Positions 1-40,032 of a stretch of 40,032 bases of DNA are shown here, one piece after another. The translations under genes and the position numbers were made by a program. Origin of the DNA: a phage; sequence record PZ490076.1. One strand, written 5' to 3'. Positions within the stretch are counted from its first letter, which is position 1. Every line of letters starts with the position of its first letter. Under the pieces are notes generated by a model. The model searched no databases and had not been told where the DNA came from. It saw nothing but the letters and a program-made list of their open reading frames with translations.

Positions 1-127
1 GCGCTACTCATAGTGATTTCCGTTTAATACAGTCGTATATCCCATACCCTATTAGCCAGATGACCGGAGATAAGCATACCCAATGTCCAACACTCATAGT
101 TAACCTCTATCAATTTAAGTGGTAATC
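1..127. repeat. Window-end duplication: bases 1-127 are identical to 39906-40032 (assembly/circularisation overlap, not the phage terminal repeat)
   Basis: Direct comparison of the first and last 127 nt; gives a unit length of 39,905 bp. The junction falls inside the early gene region, not at T7-like genome termini. Confidence 0.9.
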
Positions 128-2431: not shown

Positions 2432-4219
2432 CTAGTGGAACGTAACGTAGGACCCTAGTCCAAGCTCGTCGTCCGTATCGTGAGTTACCCGGACCCCATT
2501 GTCCCAGAACTCAGTGTGGATGGACTCGAAGCCTTTCCGTGGGTTCTCCATCTGTTCTTCCAGCCACTCCTCAGTGACTTCACGTTCGCCTTTGTTGGCA
2601 TCCTTCGCCATAGACTCAACGAAGAACTGTACACCGATAGCCAGCGCATCAAGTCGGTCATCGTGTGCCAATGCTCCACGTTCACGAGAGATACGTGTCA
2701 TCTGGTAGAAGAGAGAGTAGATAGGATTACGAACACCATCCTTATCAGAGGCAGACTGGTAATCTTGGACGATAGCAGCAGCGTTGATGATAAGTCGGTG
2801 AGACCCCATGATAGGCTCCAGAACGTCACAGATGCGGAGCTCCTTCTGACCCTTACTCTTCACTTCAGTTACAGCAGCAGGATGAATACGGGAAGCTACA
2901 GGCTTGAATAGCTCAAGGTACATCCCATCACCGAAGTTACCCTCAATGACGTATTCGTTGACCTTCCACTTACGACCAATCTTAGCTAAGGCTTCCAGAG
3001 TAGAGTCTTCATAGCCACCTCGCATACCGCCAACTTCCATAGCGAAGATGTAGCCGTTTAGCTGATACAGTACCGCATAACCAGTTTCATCCTTACCACG
3101 ACCACTAGGGTCAATGACTAGAATCTTCTGGGTGTACGAACTGAAGGCAGAACCTACAGTCTGATACGTGTGGTATGAGTCACCCATGAGTCCAACGTTA
3201 GGAACGTCCTCACGCTTGTTCTGAGGGTTAGGAAGCCATTGGTATACCATTGGGCTAGACGCTGGGTCCAAGTCGGCTACGATAAGGTCACGGAGCTTCA
3301 GAGGGTACTTCTCGGCATCACTCAGGTTAGGGTTAAGCATGAACTGTAGAGCGAAGCCAGCTTTACCATAGGACAGCTCACGTTCCTTCAGGTCCGTATC
3401 ATCGAATCGTACCTCATCGGTCGGACGCCAGTAGAAGGACTCAGGGTCCTCTTCCAGTTCTGCCTGAAGCATAGGAGCCAGACGGTCGCCGTAAGACTGC
3501 CAGTCCTTCTTATCGCGTGGGTAGCGAGCGGGCCAGATGGTAGTGGTGTATCCACGGCCTTCCAGCTCACGATACAAGGTCATCTCGTTCTGAGGAGTAC
3601 CTAGATAGATGATTGTACCTCCCGGCTTCAGGATAGCGTCGAACTCTTTTACAAGCTCTGACAGACGGTCTCGTGCAGCCTGAGTCGCTGAGTTGTTAGG
3701 AACCTCAACGTCATCGGCAATCAGGATGTCAGCACGACTACCAGTCAACTGACCAGTGATACCAACGGACTTAACCGAAGGTGAGTGGTCTGGCTTGGCT
3801 GGTCCAACGTCGAAGCTGATAACCGCATCTCGCTGCCCCTGCTTAGGTTTGAGTTCCTGAAGCTGAGGCATGAGGTCGATGATTCGCTTGATGAAGATGG
3901 AGTTCGCATCGGCTCGTTCCTTTGAGGCCGACACAATCATGAACTTCAAGTCTGGGTTGTTCCATAGTTTCCAGACCACGAAACCACAGGTCAGAAACGA
4001 CTTACCAATACCACGGAAAGCCTGAAGGATGAAGCGGCGATTATCCCCAGCAGCCAGCTTCTTACACATATCTATCTGGCAGCGGGTTGGAACCGGAAGG
4101 CTAAGAGCTTTCCAGAGAACGAAGATGAAGAACACGAAGTCCTCTTTCATCCTTTTTGTCACGGCCTCATTACGCTCTTGCGGCGTTAACTGCATCAATT
4201 GCCTCCTGTTCAGTATCAA
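2432..4219 (-). CDS. Terminase large subunit (T7 gp19 homolog), 595 aa
   Basis: Translation aligns with T7 gp19 from [18 protein letters not shown] onward ([53 protein letters not shown]). Confidence 0.97.
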
Positions 4220-4556
4220 ATCGACCGAGCCAGCGAGGTTGTATAGCCTTCCACTTCCCGGTCTGTTTACAATAAGACACGCCTTTCGGCAGGTCCCTGT
4301 TCCTGTTGTTTTCAGCCTTGGTCACAGCCCGAAGGTTCTCAATCCTGTTGTCTGTCCGGTTGCGGTTGATGTGGTCAATCACAAGGTCTGATTCAAGGGC
4401 GAACTCAGGGTTGTGCAGCTTGTAGATTAGACGGTGTACGAGATACTTACGGTAGTTGACCGTAGTCCTAAGATAACCGTGGTTGTCCATTGAGCCGACT
4501 TCACGTCCCTTCCTGAACAACTTACCGTCTGAATACGCAAAGTCTGTCAACATCAT
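4170..4556 (-). CDS. Free-standing HNH homing endonuclease, 128 aa, between Rz and terminase
   Basis: HNH motif in translation ([19 protein letters not shown]...[26 protein letters not shown]); start overlaps the Rz stop (ATGA); no counterpart at this position in T7. Confidence 0.85.
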
Positions 4557-4999
4557 TGCTCCTTCTCTTGCTGTAAGGCTCTCACAGTGTCTTGAAGGGC
4601 CTTAATCCACTTGTCTCCTTTCACTCCGATGGCGATAAGACGTTTAGCATCTCGTTCGTCAAGTTCGGCGTAACCATCAATGAAGCATCGACCGTCACTT
4701 TGCGTGGTTCCACTCGTAGGTTTGACTCGGACGAGCAGCCGCTTATTGTCAGACTTAAGGTCAGTAATAATCCTATCAGTGCTGCCTTCCAGCTCGGACA
4801 TTTCGTCCTGAAACCGTTTGGACACTTTGTTGACTTCAGCTTGGACAGCAAGCCTTGTATCTTCCGATGCCTTAAGATTCGAGGTGTATTCTGCATTGAC
4901 CTTAGCCTCCCACTTGTTGTTAGCGGTGTGGTAGCCACCAGCAAACATCACTGCTGCAAGTAGCCACGGAGCCGCTCTCTTAAATTTTTGAAATACCAT
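4553..4999 (-). CDS. Rz-like i-spanin (T7 gp18.5 homolog), 148 aa
   Basis: N-terminal transmembrane segment (WLLAAVMFAGGY) and strong similarity to T7 gp18.5 (EGSTDRIITDLKSDNKRLLVRVK..DERDAKRLIA..GDKWIKALQDT). Confidence 0.85.
   Translation of the reverse strand: MVFQKFKRAAPWLLAAVMFAGGYHTANNKWEAKVNAEYTSNLKASEDTRLAVQAEVNKVSKRFQDEMSELEGSTDRIITDLKSDNKRLLVRVKPTSGTTQSDGRCFIDGYAELDERDAKRLIAIGVKGDKWIKALQDTVRALQQEKEQ
4621..4896 (-). CDS. Rz1-like o-spanin lipoprotein embedded in the +1 frame of Rz (T7 gp18.7 homolog), about 91 aa from the internal Met
   Basis: Lipobox LTISGC and C-terminus similar to T7 gp18.7 (WKAALIGLLLTLSLTISGCSSES...SLMVTPNLTNEMLNV). Start codon uncertain. Confidence 0.7.
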   Translation of the reverse strand: MQNTPRILRHRKIQGLLSKLKSTKCPNGFRTKCPSWKAALIGLLLTLSLTISGCSSESNLRVEPRKVTVDASLMVTPNLTNEMLNVLSPSE

Positions 5000-5381
5000 A
5001 TGTCTCCTTTAGCATTCTGCTATGAGTTGACTTAGCCCATTCCACGACTTCCTTCAGATTCTTAGTAGGAGCATGAGTTTCTTTCTTACCTCCCATCCTA
5101 ATGTCACCATAGTACATAGTTACACCTTGACGTTTAGCAAACCTAGAGTATACGCCTTTAGGTAGTTCCCTAGAGGATACAGTGTTAGCCTTGTTTGCGC
5201 CTTTAGGTATGCACCTAAGGTTTGACAGTTCGTTATTCATAGGATTCCTGTCAATGTGGTCTATGACGTAGCCATCTGGGATAGGACCGTAGGCTTCCTC
5301 CCATAGTAATCTATGAACCCCATGAACCTTACCATTGCGAGTAACCTTCCAGTACCCACCACTTATGTAAGCGTCTTCCAT
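4980..5381 (-). CDS. Free-standing HNH homing endonuclease, 133 aa, between small terminase and Rz
   Basis: HNH motif (GKVHGVHRLLWEEAYGPIPDGYVIDHIDRNPMNNELSNLRCIPKGANKAN); strong RBS AAGGAGGT 5 nt upstream of ATG. Confidence 0.85.
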   Translation of the reverse strand: MEDAYISGGYWKVTRNGKVHGVHRLLWEEAYGPIPDGYVIDHIDRNPMNNELSNLRCIPKGANKANTVSSRELPKGVYSRFAKRQGVTMYYGDIRMGGKKETHAPTKNLKEVVEWAKSTHSRMLKETYGISKI

Positions 5382-26206: not shown

Positions 26207-26487
26207 TGCTTGACCTCGAATCGCAGGTTAGACACACCGGACTGACCTGCACCAAAGGCGTCTACCAGCTCCTCCTTGATGATCTCCTTGGTGACAATTT
26301 CAAGGGCAGACTCAGGGCCTGACTCGATTGCTGCTTTGACCATAGCCATCTGAAGCCCATCCAGCTTCTCACCATCAGCGTAGGCTTTAGTCATCTCAGC
26401 CAGTTGGCGACACACTGTCTCTTCTCTCTCTGAGCTAACAACCATCTTCAGGTCGAAACTCACGCGAATACGTTTAGTAATAGCCAT
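26203..26487 (-). CDS. T7 gp5.5 homolog (H-NS-binding protein family), about 94 aa from MAITKRIRVSFDL
   Basis: N-terminus resembles T7 gp5.5 (MAMTKKFKVSFDV); start overlaps the DNA polymerase exon-2 stop (TAATG). Confidence 0.65.
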   Translation of the reverse strand: MAITKRIRVSFDLKMVVSSEREETVCRQLAEMTKAYADGEKLDGLQMAMVKAAIESGPESALEIVTKEIIKEELVDAFGAGQSGVSNLRFEVKQ

Positions 26488-26642
26488 TAGTGACACTCCT
26501 TCCACGTTGGTCCAATCTTACCTTCGGTATCAAGGACACATTTAAAGTTATAGAACTCACCCACCTTACGCATAGCAAGTTGAGCAATCTTGACGACTTC
26601 TTCTGCAATCTCCTGAGTACGACAAGCTACTTGAATCTCATC
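26487..26642 (-). CDS. DNA polymerase, exon 2 (C-terminal 51 aa; T7 gp5 homolog)
   Basis: Translation DEIQVACRTQEIAEEVVKIAQLAMRKVGEFYNFKCVLDTEGKIGPTWKECH matches the T7 gp5 C-terminus (DEIQVGCRTEEIAQVVIETAQEAMRWVGDHWNFRCLLDTEGKMGPNWAICH); no in-frame start codon upstream. Confidence 0.8.
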   Translation of the reverse strand, partial: DEIQVACRTQEIAEEVVKIAQLAMRKVGEFYNFKCVLDTEGKIGPTWKECH

Positions 26643-27243
26643 CTTTCTGTATTCTCCTATTACTAGGAGTGTCGGACTATATCATCAGCCTTTGAGTTGA
26701 CTGTCTGGCGCTTCGGGTAACGAGGGAGTCTCACCCTCGGCCCTACTCCTTTCGGATAGTCTCTACGCCTTCCACTCTCTAATCCACTTACACGCGGCAG
26801 AGAACGTAACACCAAACTTCTCACCTAAGTGTGTTCCTGTACATCCAGTCTCCAACCAGTATTCCTTCGCGGACTCTTTACGGTCAGCGTAGCGTTCTCT
26901 GTTTGTCTTGACTGTATGCTCAGACCCTTCTAGTAACTGGAGATGCTCTGGATTACAGCATGCCCTGTTCCTACACTTGTGGTCTACTTCATACCCTTCT
27001 GGTATATCTCCGTGCTGTTCCTTCCAGACTGTCCTGTGGTACATCTCTAGGACACCGTTAGTCCTCTTTCGGAAATAACCATCAGCATTAAGTTTGTGTG
27101 ACGTAGGGATGATACAACCACTCTCTGTGGTCGCAAGGATTAACTTCTTGCCTCTCATATATCCTCCCTATGGCTTGGCTCGGTATTGCCCTAGAAGGGT
27201 TTCACCGAGTTCACCAGATTTAATGTGCACAATGAGATAGTTT
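26643..27243 (-). mobile_element. Group I intron (about 601 nt) interrupting the DNA polymerase gene, carrying an HNH endonuclease ORF
   Basis: Exon 1 ends ...AYMAWVH (U at the splice site), exon 2 resumes DEIQV (intron ends in G); possible P1 pairing between exon GUGCAU and intron GUGCAC; group I R-like (AGAGACUA) and S-like (GAUAUAGUCC) elements in the 3' part. Confidence 0.75.
26763..27158 (-). CDS. Intron-encoded HNH homing endonuclease, 131 aa
   Basis: HNH motif (EVDHKCRNRACCNPEHLQLL); GGGAGGA RBS 5 nt upstream; wholly inside the predicted intron. Confidence 0.8.
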   Translation of the reverse strand: MRGKKLILATTESGCIIPTSHKLNADGYFRKRTNGVLEMYHRTVWKEQHGDIPEGYEVDHKCRNRACCNPEHLQLLEGSEHTVKTNRERYADRKESAKEYWLETGCTGTHLGEKFGVTFSAACKWIREWKA

Positions 27244-29259
27244 ATGCACCCATGCCATGTATGCAAAGTCTCCTTCCCAGCCGTGGACATACCCGGCCTC
27301 TTCGAGCATACGTTCAGTCTCGACAATCCAGTGCTTACAGACTACCGCACCATCGCCTTGAAGTAAGGCGTTCAGTGCTGAGTGTGGAGACCGGATGTGG
27401 ATACGGCGACCGTCAAGTCCACGCAACCAACGGCGTTTCCACTTGACGATATTCTCTCCGTCAACCCACTTAGAGTCTGAGATTAACGTACTACTCACAG
27501 CTTCCCTGAGGTCTTTGATGGCTGGTGTACCCTCAATGAATTTCTTCATGAGAGCTGAACCTTCCTTCTTCCCGCCGCCTACTATCAGTCCAATCTTAGC
27601 GGCCCCTGCACCATACAGGAACGCATAGATGAACGTCTTAGCGTTGTTACGGAAAGCATCATGGTCGTGGCTCGACTTATCGCGTGGGACGTTAGGCGCT
27701 AACCCAGCGTTTACTGCGTTGGCCCAGTGGATATCACCTTCGACCACAGTCTTCGCATAGGCACCACCATCAAACGGAGCCGCTCGGTTCCCCAGACAAC
27801 GAAGCTCAAGACCTGAAGCATCCACACCCACTTGAATCCAAGGGTCTGGCTTACCATCCGTCTTGTTCCAAGCTGCACCGAAAGCACCACGGCAAATCTC
27901 ACCATACGGAGCACCGTTAGCAGGGACCTGAGCCATGTTTGGTGAACTGTGAGTCGCACGTCCGGTTACTGCCCCGCATGGGTTGATTGAACCGTGCATA
28001 CGTCCGTCTGGACCTACAAGTTTCAACCATGCGTTCTTACCTTCAGCAGCCTGACCTATGCGCTTCTGGACTACCAGATACTCACGGACCAGCTCTACGC
28101 AAGCCTGAGCCTCTGCGTCCGGTAACTTAACGTGTTCTAACGTCTCGTCATCGACTACAGGTTTCCCTGTGTCAGTGAAGTCCACAGGCTCCCAGCCACG
28201 CTCCATCAGGACTTTCGCTAAGTGGTCTCCGCTTCCCGGATTAAACTCAACGTAAGTGATTGGCGTGAACGGTGCTCCTTCCATCGTGTCTCGTGAGTCG
28301 AACTCGCAAGGCTCCAGACCTAAGCGTTGAGCTTTGTTCTTCGGCTTCTTGAATACTGACCCGACCTTAGGATACACGACTCGCGGATACTTCGGGAGGT
28401 CCTTTCCTGTCCGTGGGTGCCTGAAGAACTCCTTGCCACCCTTCGGTGCATACCAGCTACCGAAAGTCGAACGCAGCTTGTCCAACAGCTCTGCACGTTT
28501 GACGGTTAGTTCACGATATAAGCCTTCGACCATCTCGGTGTTCATCGGATAGCCGTTACGCTCCATCTTCGCACAGGTCCACGCAGCATCATGTTCCAGA
28601 CGCAACGCATAAATCTGGTCGAGAGCGAACTGTTCAGACTGGAAGTAATACTTGTCAGTCAGGAACTTCTTGAACAACGCCAGTGTGACCACAACGTCTT
28701 GAACGTTATAGTCCAGCATCTCCTGAGACGGGAACAGCCATTCGTCCCCAGCCTTATATTCGATACCTTCAGCCTTGCACTTGGCAACGTAATCGTGTTT
28801 GTACTCACCTTTCATCTCACCGAGACGATAGCCCCAAGCCTCAAGAGACTGGCGTCCCATCATCTTAGGTGGCAGACGACCAGCTTTCACTGCGCCCATG
28901 TCTGAGAACTTAATGTTTGGATACATCAAGCGTCCCAGCACCAAGGTATCAATCATCTTGTGTTTCGGGAAGTTAAAGCGTTTCCCAAAGTACAGACGCT
29001 TCAGCTTGTCAATAGCCGGGACGTCATAGTTGATACCGTTGTGGAATACCAGCATACCATCAGGTGATGCGGCAATCTCTTCCACCTTCTGTACATACTC
29101 TTTGAAGCCACCGACGATACCGACCATCGGAGCTACCCCATACTTAAGGGTCTCATTCGACTCGGCGTTAATCAGGACCCCACAGTGAAACTGGGAGACT
29201 GTATCAAGGAGACCGTTGGTCTCTATGTCAGAACCCCAGATACTCTTAAGGTCAAACAT
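27244..29259 (-). CDS. DNA polymerase, exon 1 (T7 gp5 homolog), about 672 aa
   Basis: Strong similarity to T7 gp5 (MEGAPFTPI..VEFNPGS.DH, NGAVTGRATH, DASGLELRCL, AKTFIYAFLYGAG, GDFAYMAWVH); start placed at MFDLKSIW (GGAGGA RBS), not the upstream track start at 29295. Confidence 0.9.
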
Positions 29260-29279
29260 GGTTAATCCTCCGTTTAGTC

Positions 29280-29318
29280 TAATCATAAAGGCCACTCGAT
29301 GTGAATGACCTTGAGTCT
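29280..29318 (-). promoter_or_regulatory. Candidate RNase III processing site (copy B of the conserved element), 21 nt upstream of the DNA polymerase start
   Basis: Minus strand TAGACTCAAGGTCATTCACATCGAGTGGCCTTTATGATTAGAC. Confidence 0.4.
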
Positions 29319-39719: not shown

Positions 39720-39916
39720 TACAGTTTGCTCCCAAGAGTTGCTATATCCCAGACGTTCGCGAGGTTGCATATGAATCGTCCGTTAGGCTGACGTACAGTC
39801 CAGCGGACCATACGTACATAGTTGAATTTATAGACTTTACGCGCTTTGTTGATGTCTCTCACCAGCACGTAGGCGATAAGTCCATAGCCTATGGCTATCA
39901 ATATTGCGCTACTCAT
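39719..39916 (-). CDS. Hypothetical small early protein with a hydrophobic N-terminus, 65 aa
   Basis: ORF track; N-terminus MSSAILIAIGYGLIAYVLV looks membrane-anchored; start lies in the window-end overlap region. Confidence 0.35.
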   Translation of the reverse strand: MSSAILIAIGYGLIAYVLVRDINKARKVYKFNYVRMVRWTVRQPNGRFICNLANVWDIATLGSKL

Positions 39917-40032
39917 AGTGATTTCCGTTTAATACAGTCGTATATCCCATACCCTATTAGCCAGATGACCGGAGATAAGCATACCCAATGTCCAACACTC
40001 ATAGTTAACCTCTATCAATTTAAGTGGTAATC

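What the first reader, a model, noticed from the sequence alone, without database searches (positions are those of the whole stretch)
26487..29259. DNA polymerase gene split by a group I intron carrying an HNH endonuclease
The T7 gp5-like polymerase reading frame stops after ...GDFAYMAWVH (exon 1 ends at 27244). The missing C-terminal 51 residues (DEIQVACRT...GPTWKECH) are encoded 601 nt downstream (26487-26642) with no in-frame start codon. The intervening sequence holds an HNH ORF (26763-27158) with its own strong RBS. Exon 1 ends in U and the intervening sequence ends in G, an exon GUGCAU / intron GUGCAC P1 pairing is possible, and the 3' part contains R-like (AGAGACUA) and S-like (GAUAUAGUCC) group I elements. 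Self-splicing introns of this kind have been reported in T7-like DNA polymerase genes; this looks like another instance, and its insertion site and endonuclease could be compared with those.
Basis: partly seen in the sequence, partly recalled or inferred. Interest (0 to 1): 0.75.

Follow-up and report, generated by a model that had tools for sequence, protein, structure and literature searches.

The report
Known self-splicing intron in phage polymerase
The DNA polymerase gene of this T7-like coliphage is interrupted, just before a catalytic aspartate codon, by a 601-base group I intron carrying its own homing endonuclease; this intron family was already described in phages PhiI, W31, K1F and 13a, so the finding is correct but ordinary.

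Summary
The window is the genome of Escherichia phage BUCT788, a K1F-like Kayfunavirus.

- **Gene structure.** Polymerase exon 1 is 29259-27244, the intron is 27243-26643 (601 nt), and exon 2 is 26642-26487, all on the minus strand. The joined exons align without a gap to T7 gp5. The junction falls between His653 and Asp654 of the HDE motif.
- **Intron fold.** It has a complete group I, subgroup IA2 core: P1 with a U.G pair, an 8-bp P10, P3-P9, and P7.1-GUA-P7.2. The ORF sits in P6a and the intron ends in G.
- **Support for the fold.** Across 18 relatives, 95% of cells pair, against 36-45% in slid controls. Compensatory changes occur in 27 of 64 pairs.
- **Rfam score.** Intron_gpI scores 38.3 bits, below the gathering score of 50. 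An ORF-less sibling at the same site scores 61.2 bits.
- **Endonuclease.** It is 85% identical to I-TslI of phage PhiI.
- **Insertion site.** It is the site reported for the self-splicing PhiI and W31 introns (Bonocora & Shub 2004).

Two modest additions. GenBank annotates the BUCT788 polymerase as truncated. The intron is 13a-type inside K1F-type exons, with a 16-nt co-conversion tract, which points to cross-genus homing.

Interest is low.

The parts
27244..29259 (-). DNA polymerase (T7 gp5 homologue) exon 1, 672 codons, ends ...AWVH
   Evidence: ORF list and translation. Aligns to T7 gp5 residues 4-653. The start ATG at 29259 follows GGAGG and matches the annotated K1F start.
26643..27243 (-). 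Group I (subgroup IA2) intron, 601 nt, starts AAACUAUC... and ends ...ACAGAAAG
   Evidence: Rfam RF00028 full-model match, 38.3 bits. Covariation. Boundaries are fixed by the gap-free T7 gp5 alignment and by the P1 and P10 pairings.
26487..26642 (-). DNA polymerase exon 2: 51 codons (DEIQVACRT...GPTWKECH) plus stop. It carries the catalytic Asp that corresponds to T7 Asp654.
   Evidence: No in-frame start codon lies upstream of it.
26763..27158 (-). Intron-encoded HNH homing endonuclease, 131 aa, orthologue of I-TslI, inserted in the P6a loop
   Evidence: Pfam HNH_3 E=1.9e-16. PHROG 6254 E=2.5e-47. Same 90% cluster as I-TslI of phage PhiI and 85% identical to it. All family-invariant His, Asn and Cys residues are kept.
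27163..27167 (-). GGAGG ribosome-binding site of the endonuclease ORF, on the 5' side of the P6a extension
   Evidence: Sequence.
27225..27249 (-). P1 hairpin. The 5' exon GUGCAU (27249-27244) pairs with the internal guide GUGCAC (27230-27225), with a U.G wobble at the 5' splice site. The loop holds the P10 guide.
   Evidence: (helix 1: 96% of cells paired, U.G in 18 of 18).
27231..27238 (-). P10 guide AUCUCAUU, complementary to the first 8 nt of exon 2
   Evidence: (helix 2: 89% of cells paired, 2 pairs with compensatory change).
26635..26642 (-). Exon 2 strand of P10 (GAUGAGAU)
27220..27222 (-). UAA that ends the exon 1 reading frame eight codons into the intron, in J1/3, if the RNA is not spliced
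   Evidence: It is the end of the truncated polymerase CDS in GenBank.
27212..27218 (-). P3 5' strand UCUGGUG
   Evidence: Pairs with 26710-26704. 100% of cells paired, and 5 of 7 pairs show compensatory changes (helix 3).
27180..27208 (-). P4-P5 domain: P4 UCGGU/ACCGA, J4/5 AAA, P5 CCCU/AGGG, J5/4 CAA
   Evidence: (P4 invariant; P5 has 3 pairs with compensatory change).
27177..27179 (-). P6 5' strand GCC; its partner GGC is at 26769-26767, inside the last codons of the ORF
   Evidence: helix 6 (C-G to U-A swap in 8 of 18 sequences).
26757..26761 (-). P7 5' strand GACUA, part of the R element AGAGACUA (26764-26757) that overlaps the ORF stop codon
   Evidence: (invariant).
26715..26756 (-). 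P7.1 (UCC-GAAA-GGA), the GUA linker and P7.2 (GGG C CGAGGG ... CCCUCG UUA CCC), which together are the IA2 signature
   Evidence: P7.2 has compensatory changes (helices 11-12). PMC3428280 names P7.1 and P7.2 linked by G-U-A as the IA2 criterion.
26704..26710 (-). P3 3' strand CGCCAGA
26686..26703 (-). P8 hairpin CAGUC-AACUCAAA-GGCUG
   Evidence: helices 13-14 (4 of 5 pairs with compensatory change).
26675..26685 (-). J8/7 (AUGAUA) plus the P7 3' strand UAGUC. The S element GAUAUAGUCC spans 26683-26674.
   Evidence: Invariant in all 18 relatives.
26654..26669 (-). P9 hairpin CUCCUA-GUAA-UAGGAG
   Evidence: helix 15 (100% of cells paired, 4 of 6 pairs with compensatory change).
26643..26643 (-). 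Terminal G (omega G) at the 3' splice site
   Evidence: Sequence. Conserved in all same-site relatives.
26627..26642 (-). Co-conversion tract: exon 2 nt +1 to +16 are identical to phage 13a and differ at 5 positions from the Kayfunavirus alleles K1F and ST31

Best explanation
[quoted passage not shown] It sits between the His and Asp codons of the catalytic HDE motif (motif C).

**Splicing (inferred from the fold and from related introns).**
- The gene is transcribed as one pre-mRNA.
- The intron folds into the P1-P10 core.
- An exogenous guanosine attacks after the U of the P1 U.G pair, at 27244.
- The internal guide then aligns exon 2 through P10.
- The freed exon 1 3'-OH attacks after the terminal G at 26643, ligating the exons.
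- The spliced mRNA encodes a full 723-aa polymerase with the catalytic Asp restored.

**Mobility (inferred from homology and from the mosaic sequence).**
- The P6a loop carries an HNH endonuclease gene with its own ribosome-binding site.
- The protein is an orthologue of I-TslI.
- In mixed infections it is expected to cut or nick intron-less polymerase alleles near this site.
- Repair from the intron-containing allele then copies in the intron plus a short stretch of flanking exon.

Shown here: the split gene, the exact boundaries, the conserved and covarying RNA fold, the intact endonuclease family member, and a mosaic sequence pattern with a co-conversion tract. Inferred, not shown: catalysis, splicing in this phage, and endonuclease activity and specificity.
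For: **Gene structure.** The joined exons align gap-free with T7 gp5 (E=4.5e-270). The junction falls at T7 His653|Asp654.

**Intron-less alleles.** About 1200 phage records match the spliced junction. Nearly all of the sampled rows match as one uninterrupted piece, T7 and the 94%-identical Kayfunavirus ST31 among them.

**RNA fold.**
- Rfam Intron_gpI is the only hit in the window, and it covers the full model.
- On 18 distinct relatives, my IA2 structure gives 95.1% of cells paired, against 36-45% when partners are slid by 1-3 columns. Compensatory changes occur in 27 of 64 pairs. No shuffle out of 500 reached the observed percentage paired, number of compensatory pairs or cells, or covariation score; 12 of 500 reached the count of further pair types.
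- RNAalifold, without my structure, recovers P1, P3, P4, P5, P6, P6a, P7.1, P7.2, P8 and P9.
- The single-sequence fold has z = -2.8.

**Rfam score of ORF-less relatives.** One at the same site scores 61.2 bits, above the gathering score of 50. Another, at a different site, scores 58.9 bits.

**Endonuclease.** It matches HNH_3, keeps all family invariants, and shares a cluster with I-TslI of PhiI at 85% identity. I-TslI is listed among intron-encoded homing nicking endonucleases (PMC8845596).

**Same site and architecture as the characterised introns.** PhiI and W31 carry IA2 introns at site 881 (E. coli Pol I numbering) with the ORF in P6a (PMC3428280).

**Similarity to PhiI-type introns.** Phages whose endonuclease is 98.5% identical to PhiI I-TslI have a ribozyme core about 98% identical to this one.

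**Mobility signature.**
- Exon 1 is 97% K1F-like and 56% 13a-like.
- The intron plus endonuclease gene is 96-99% 13a-like and only 73-92% K1F-like.
- The first 16 nt of exon 2 are 13a-type.
Against: - No RNA or protein data exist for this phage, so splicing is inferred.
- The Rfam score (38.3 bits) is below the gathering score of 50, and the default scan reports nothing.
- Infernal placed the ORF insertion at the wrong point. It aligned GCGACCA, early in the ORF, to the R element. The structure used here is therefore partly hand-drawn.
- P4, P7 and P7.1 never vary in my set, so covariation says nothing about them.
- The original Bonocora & Shub papers and the PhiI and W31 nucleotide sequences could not be read here. 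The comparison rests on secondary citation and on proxies.
Confidence: 0.93

Rival explanations
1. The gene is split with no splicing. A free-standing endonuclease gene has cut the polymerase gene into two separately translated pieces that assemble into an active enzyme.
For: GenBank annotates BUCT788 this way in part: a truncated 'DNA polymerase I' CDS followed by an HNH endonuclease. Several relatives' records list two 'DNA polymerase' CDSs.
Against: - Exon 2 has no in-frame ATG, GTG or TTG and no ribosome-binding site before 26642.
- The sequence flanking the ORF is a conserved, covarying group I core.
- P1 and P10 pair exactly with the two exon edges.
- ORF-less versions of the same element occupy the same site (L017 and L019, 225 nt). 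A free-standing endonuclease gene insertion cannot explain those.
Confidence: 0.03
2. The intron is a decayed, non-splicing relic, so the polymerase gene is a pseudogene or yields only a truncated product that lacks the motif C aspartate.
For: Degenerate versions exist among relatives. L014 has a 419-nt intron with a shortened ORF region, and L019 scores 47.9 bits, below the Rfam cut-off.
Against: - BUCT788 is an isolated, propagated lytic phage.
- T7-type phages need gp5, and no second polymerase gene is annotated.
- The ribozyme core is 98-100% identical to that of many independent isolates.
- Every position that is invariant across the family is kept.
- The endonuclease ORF is intact.
Confidence: 0.02
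3. The intervening sequence is another kind of element: an intein, a group II intron, or a translational bypass or frameshift site.
For: None beyond the bare fact of an interrupted gene.
Against: - Stop codons close the polymerase frame 8 codons into the insert and again before exon 2, so protein splicing is impossible.
- No group II or other RNA family matches at E<=0.01.
- A 601-nt gap is far outside known bypassing.
Confidence: 0.005

Closest known systems
[quoted passage not shown]
   Same: - The host gene and the insertion site are the same: after the His of motif C HDE, given as site 881 in E. coli Pol I numbering.
- The subgroup is the same (IA2, with P7.1-GUA-P7.2).
- The ORF lies in P6a.
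- The endonuclease is a 131-aa HNH protein in the same 90% cluster as I-TslI of PhiI.
   Different: - The endonuclease is 85%, not 100%, identical to PhiI I-TslI.
- The host polymerase is K1F-type (Kayfunavirus). Whether PhiI and W31 sit nearer T7 or T3 was not checked here.
Intron of Escherichia phage 13a gene 5 (EU734174, annotated as join plus endonuclease) and near-identical copies in HZP2, JeanTinguely, Bas103/104, pO111 and others
   Same: - The ribozyme is 99% identical and the endonuclease gene 96% identical.
- The length is the same, 601 nt.
- The splice sites are the same.
   Different: The flanking polymerase exons are only 56-68% identical beyond about 50 nt from the junction. The host genus differs: Teseptimavirus against Kayfunavirus.
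Intron of Escherichia phage K1F gene 5 with gp5.3 (DQ111067; called a putative group I intron in PMC4925675)
   Same: The genus, the site and the architecture are the same. Distal exon 1 is 97% identical.
   Different: - K1F carries a diverged intron lineage. The 5' ribozyme is 85% identical, the 3' ribozyme 92.5%, the endonuclease gene 73% at nucleotide level and 77% at protein level.
- It is 598 nt long, with a shorter P1 loop.
IA2 introns in other phage family A DNA polymerase genes (SPO1, SP82, Bastille, Pf-WMP3, phiL7)
   Same: They have the same mechanism, the same subgroup and an HNH endonuclease in a peripheral loop, and they target conserved polymerase motifs.
   Different: The insertion sites differ (674 and 676 against 881 in E. 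coli numbering), and the endonucleases are unrelated or only distantly related.

Membership tests
Group I intron | Conserved core of paired regions P3-P9, including the P3/P7 pseudoknot | tested here: met
   All helices were located. 95.1% of cells pair, against 36-45% when slid. Compensatory changes occur in P3, P5, P6, P7.2, P8 and P9. RNAalifold agrees for the nested helices. P4, P7 and P7.1 are invariant, so they are uninformative.
Group I intron | 5' splice site after a U that forms a U.G wobble in P1 with the internal guide sequence | tested here: met
   U27244 pairs with G27230. The pair is U.G in 18 of 18 relatives (columns 10 and 24).
Group I intron | Terminal G at the 3' splice site, with a P10 pairing between the guide and the 3' exon | tested here: met
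   The terminal G is at 26643. AUCUCAUU pairs with GAUGAGAU over 8 bp. In the family, 89% of cells are paired and 2 pairs show compensatory change.
Group I intron | Match to the curated covariance model Rfam RF00028 at its gathering score | tested here: inconclusive
   The match scores 38.3 bits against a cut-off of 50, but it covers the full model at E=5e-8. The 396-nt ORF insertion lowers the score: the ORF-less sibling at the same site scores 61.2 bits, and other ORF-containing siblings score 27-42 bits. The ORF-deleted window sequence could not be submitted to cmscan.
Group I intron | Guanosine-initiated self-splicing | not testable with these tools
   This needs in vitro transcription with GTP, or RT-PCR. 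It is reported for the PhiI and W31 introns according to PMC3428280.
Subgroup IA2 | Extra helices P7.1 and P7.2 between P7 and the P3 3' strand, linked by G-U-A | tested here: met
   UCC-GAAA-GGA, then GUA, then the P7.2 hairpin at 26756-26715. The criterion is taken from PMC3428280. P7.2 covaries.
T7-like phage DNA polymerase intron (PhiI/W31 type) | Insertion between the His and Asp codons of motif C (site 881 in E. coli Pol I numbering) | tested here: met
   The junction is T7 His653|Asp654 by alignment to PDB 6n7w. The equivalence of T7 653/654 with E. coli 881/882 rests on my knowledge of the VHDE motif and was not computed here.
T7-like phage DNA polymerase intron (PhiI/W31 type) | Endonuclease ORF located in P6a and orthologous to I-TslI | tested here: met
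   The ORF lies between the P6 5' strand (27179-27177) and the P6 3' strand (26769-26767). It shares a cluster with I-TslI of PhiI and is 85% identical to it.
T7-like phage DNA polymerase intron (PhiI/W31 type) | Nucleotide similarity to the published PhiI and W31 intron sequences (AY769989, AY769990) | not tested
   Those records are not in the searchable collections. The proxy is about 98% core identity to phages whose endonuclease is 98.5% identical to PhiI I-TslI.
HNH (His-Me finger) homing endonuclease | HNH_3 domain above the Pfam cut-off, with conserved catalytic His and Asn and Cys ligands | tested here: met
   HNH_3 scores 59.8 bits against a cut-off of 24.8. H60, C62, C67, N69, H72, H81 and N86 are invariant in 19 homologues and present here.
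HNH (His-Me finger) homing endonuclease | Cleaves or nicks the intron-less allele near the insertion site | not testable with these tools
   The only indirect evidence is the mosaic pattern and the 16-nt co-conversion tract.
Intein | Insert read in frame with the host protein, without stop codons | tested here: not met
   The frame stops 8 codons into the insert, and further stops precede exon 2.

The most novel reading that the evidence does not exclude
BUCT788 (with its close relative PDP351P3) records a recent cross-genus homing event. A 13a-type intron from a Teseptimavirus entered a Kayfunavirus polymerase gene and dragged in only 16 nt of donor exon 2. That changed two residues next to the catalytic Asp, from DELQIA to DEIQVA.

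Other Kayfunaviruses (K1F, CLB_P1, Ro45lw) carry a different, diverged intron and endonuclease lineage at the very same site. This could mean that two endonuclease lineages compete for, and replace each other at, one polymerase site across phage genera. Whether the recipient allele was intron-less or already held a K1F-type intron cannot be decided from these data.
Probability: 0.6. Interest if true: 0.3.

Novelty: already known. Interest (0 to 1): 0.15.

Why it matters
**Annotation.** The main value is practical. The GenBank record for this phage, and for many relatives, gives a truncated polymerase and leaves exon 2 unannotated. Exon 2 carries a catalytic aspartate. Recognising the intron restores a full-length essential gene and prevents false 'split' or 'truncated' polymerase calls in pangenome and phage-therapy genome screens.

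**Detection.** ORF-containing group I introns of this family all fall below Rfam's gathering score, so default scans miss them.

**Biology.** This is one more natural example of intron homing between phage genera, with a sharply bounded co-conversion tract. It is not a new mechanism.

Tried and rejected
- **Rfam gathering scan of the whole window.** It found nothing. A permissive scan was needed.
- **Infernal's own alignment.** It misplaced the ORF insertion and the R element, so I redrew the structure by hand and tested it on relatives.
- **Reading the primary papers.** Bonocora & Shub 2004 and 2009 are not held, so secondary citations were used.
- **PDB sequence search with the endonuclease.** It found no solved relative at E<=1.
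- **Fetching contigs that encode PhiI I-TslI.** A tblastn against the phage collection served as a proxy.
- **Literature search for BUCT788.** It returned no paper.
- **Single-sequence MFE folding.** It recovers P1, P4, P5, P7.1, P7.2 and P9 but mispairs P3, P6 and P8. I relied on the comparative evidence instead.
- **Alternatives considered and rejected.** These were an intein, a group II intron, translational bypass, a two-polypeptide polymerase and a dead relic (see rivals).
- **Alignment quality.** MAFFT misaligned the P1 region of L020 and L027 and parts of P8 and P7.2. The 'not paired' cells in those helices therefore partly reflect alignment error, not broken pairs.
Full report
**Identity of the window.** The region is 100% identical to Escherichia phage BUCT788 (PV540240.1). 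This is a 40-kb T7-like phage whose closest named relatives are Kayfunavirus members: K1F, ST31 and PDP351P3. The genes lie on the minus strand of the window. The window is the whole genome, with a 127-nt direct terminal repeat at its ends.

**Check of the observation.**
- *Exon 1.* The polymerase frame (ATG 29259, preceded by GGAGG) reads through ...GDFAYMAWVH. The His codon ends at 27244. If the RNA is not spliced, the frame terminates eight codons later, at the TAA at 27222-27220.
- *Exon 2.* The 51 C-terminal residues DEIQVACRT...GPTWKECH plus the stop codon are at 26642-26487, 601 nt downstream. No in-frame start codon follows the last upstream stop.
- *Endonuclease ORF.* A 131-codon ORF with its own GGAGG site lies at 27158-26763.
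- *Junction.* The joined exons give a 723-aa protein that aligns to T7 gp5 (PDB 6n7w, E=4.5e-270). The alignment is colinear across the junction: DFAYMAWVH|DEIQV against T7 DFAYMAWVHDEIQV. The junction is therefore at T7 His653|Asp654. By established knowledge of T7 gp5, Asp654 is one of the two metal-binding carboxylates, so the exon 1 product alone should be catalytically dead.

**What the intervening sequence is.**
- *Rfam.* The default scan reports nothing. With permissive thresholds, the only hit in the whole window is Intron_gpI over 27253-26653. It covers the full model at 38.3 bits, against a gathering score of 50 (E=5e-8 in the 1-kb region, 2e-6 in the window).
- *Why the score is low.* The deficit is a property of ORF-bearing members. 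Homologous ORF-containing introns score 27-42 bits. An ORF-less sibling at the very same site (L017) scores 61.2 bits, and another ORF-less relative (phage Arash) scores 58.9 bits.
- *Helices.* By hand I located every element (coordinates verified):
  - P1: exon GUGCAU with guide GUGCAC, with a U.G wobble at the splice site.
  - P10: an 8-bp pairing of guide AUCUCAUU with exon 2 GAUGAGAU.
  - P3, P4, P5 and P6.
  - P6a, which holds the ORF.
  - P7: GACUA with UAGUC.
  - P7.1-GUA-P7.2, P8 and P9, and a terminal G.
  - No P2.
- *Subgroup.* P7.1 and P7.2 joined by G-U-A is the stated criterion for subgroup IA2 (PMC3428280).

**Comparative test of the fold.** I collected relatives from GenBank phages and from IMG/VR with a conserved-core pattern. 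I removed the ORF from each and aligned 18 distinct sequences.
- On my structure, 95.1% of cells form standard pairs. The figure is 36-45% when the 3' partners are slid by 1-3 columns.
- Compensatory double changes occur in 27 of 64 pairs.
- No shuffle out of 500 reached the observed percentage paired, number of compensatory pairs or cells, or covariation score; 12 of 500 reached the count of further pair types.
- P3 is the clearest helix, with 5 of 7 pairs swapped and 100% of cells paired. P5, P6, P7.2, P8 and P9 also covary.
- P4, P7 and P7.1 never vary, so they are uninformative.
- RNAalifold, given no structure, recovered all the nested helices.

**The endonuclease.**
- The ORF matches Pfam HNH_3 (59.8 bits, cut-off 24.8) and PHROG 6254.
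- It keeps every invariant His, Asn and Cys of 19 diverse homologues.
- It falls in the same 90%-identity cluster as 'I-TslI [Phage PhiI]' (AAV53690.1).
- Pairwise identity is 85% to I-TslI and 77% to K1F gp5.3.
- I-TslI is cited as an intron-encoded homing nicking endonuclease (PMC8845596).

**Comparison with what is known.**
- *PhiI and W31.* PMC3428280 summarises Bonocora & Shub 2004. T7-like phages PhiI and W31 carry IA2 introns in the DNA polymerase gene at site 881 (E. coli Pol I numbering), with an HNH ORF in P6a. The self-splicing of these introns is taken from the title of Bonocora & Shub 2004 (quoted); the paper itself could not be read. The site, subgroup, ORF position and endonuclease family all match.
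- *K1F and 13a.* Their GenBank records already annotate gene 5 as a join around a homing endonuclease. PMC4925675 mentions the K1F intron.
- *Frequency.* About 1200 phage records match the spliced junction. Roughly 40 carry this intron in full.
- *Wider distribution.* The same intron family sits at the same His|Asp site in more distant family A polymerases: Aeromonas PT2, the Edwardsiella and Klebsiella 44-kb autographiviruses, ECBP2-like Gordonclarkvirinae, and Vibrio Vp_R1.

**Evidence of mobility.**
- *Mosaic pattern.* Exon 1 of BUCT788 is 97% identical to K1F and about 56% to 13a. The intron and endonuclease gene are 96-99% identical to 13a and only 73-92% identical to K1F.
- *Exon 2 boundary.* Nucleotides +1 to +16 are identical to 13a and differ at five positions from K1F and the intron-less ST31. 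From +17 onward the sequence is Kayfunavirus-type.
- *Exon 1 boundary.* The nearest position that tells the two types apart (-29) is Kayfunavirus-type.
- *Interpretation.* This is the expected footprint of endonuclease-initiated gene conversion from a 13a-like donor, with a short co-conversion tract. It changes DELQIA to DEIQVA next to the catalytic Asp.

**Mechanism and confidence.** The best explanation (0.93) is a functional self-splicing IA2 intron with a homing endonuclease. What is shown is the split gene, the boundaries, the covarying fold, an intact I-TslI orthologue and the recombination footprint. Catalysis, splicing in this phage and nuclease specificity are inferred. The rivals, each given 0.03 or less:
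- *Two-piece polymerase without splicing.* It fails because exon 2 has no start codon, and ORF-less versions of the element occupy the same site.
- *Dead relic.* It fails because the core matches many independent isolates and the polymerase is the only one in a viable phage.
- *Intein, group II intron or translational bypass.* These fail because the insert contains stop codons and no other RNA family matches.

**Verdict.** The observation and the interpretation are both right, but this is an already-known element. The useful by-products are:
- a correction to the BUCT788 annotation;
- the note that Rfam's gathering score misses ORF-bearing members of this family;
- a clean co-conversion example of cross-genus homing.

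Noticed in passing
window 27220-29286 (-) and 26487-26642 (-): The GenBank record PV540240.1 annotates the polymerase as a single truncated CDS. It starts at an upstream ATG (window 29286) and ends at the in-intron stop (27220). Exon 2 is left unannotated, and no intron feature is given.
   Followed up: yes
window 4980-5381 (-) and 4170-4556 (-): Two more HNH_3 endonuclease ORFs (133 and 128 aa; Pfam E=3.6e-18 and 9e-18) flank the spanin gene between the small and large terminase subunits. They look like free-standing homing endonuclease genes. The second is annotated only as hypothetical. No group I intron signal lies nearby.
   Followed up: partly
window 1-127 and 39906-40032: The first and last 127 nt of the window are identical. 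This is a T7-style direct terminal repeat, so the window is the full linear genome. The GenBank record is a permuted version.
   Followed up: partly
L005 108-744 and 1186-1809; L017 8689-8917 and 9330-9587; L014 10437-10579 and 10998-11416: Several relatives carry two group I introns in one polymerase gene. The second lies in the motif B region in Aeromonas phage PT2 (...NAKTF|...). BUCT788 has only the motif C intron.
   Followed up: partly
L017 and L019 (225-nt introns); L014 (419-nt intron): ORF-less and ORF-shortened versions of the same intron sit at the same His|Asp site in IMG/VR contigs. In L017 a 16-nt palindromic hairpin closes P6a. This suggests the endonuclease gene is lost while the ribozyme is retained.
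   Followed up: partly
L007 and L008 (Klebsiella RCIP0053, Edwardsiella DT115P1), alignment A1 columns 33-52: These same-site introns have an extra hairpin, ACGUC-GAGUAAUU-GACGU, between P1 and P3. It looks like a P2, which the BUCT788, K1F and 13a introns lack.
   Followed up: no
L006 (Vibrio phage Vp_R1), L010 (ECBP2), L008, L007, L004 (NS1): Public records of these phages annotate the interrupted polymerase as separate CDSs or as hypothetical proteins, without an intron. The annotation gap seen in BUCT788 is therefore widespread.
   Followed up: no
L030 (ST31) and L031 (T7) at the junction, compared with window 27249-27244 and 26642-26637: Intron-less alleles differ from intron-containing ones at synonymous positions right at the site. 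ST31 has GTCCAC|GACGAA and T7 has GTACAT|GATGAA, against GTGCAT|GATGAG. These are the bases that form P1 and P10, and they may also affect endonuclease recognition.
   Followed up: no
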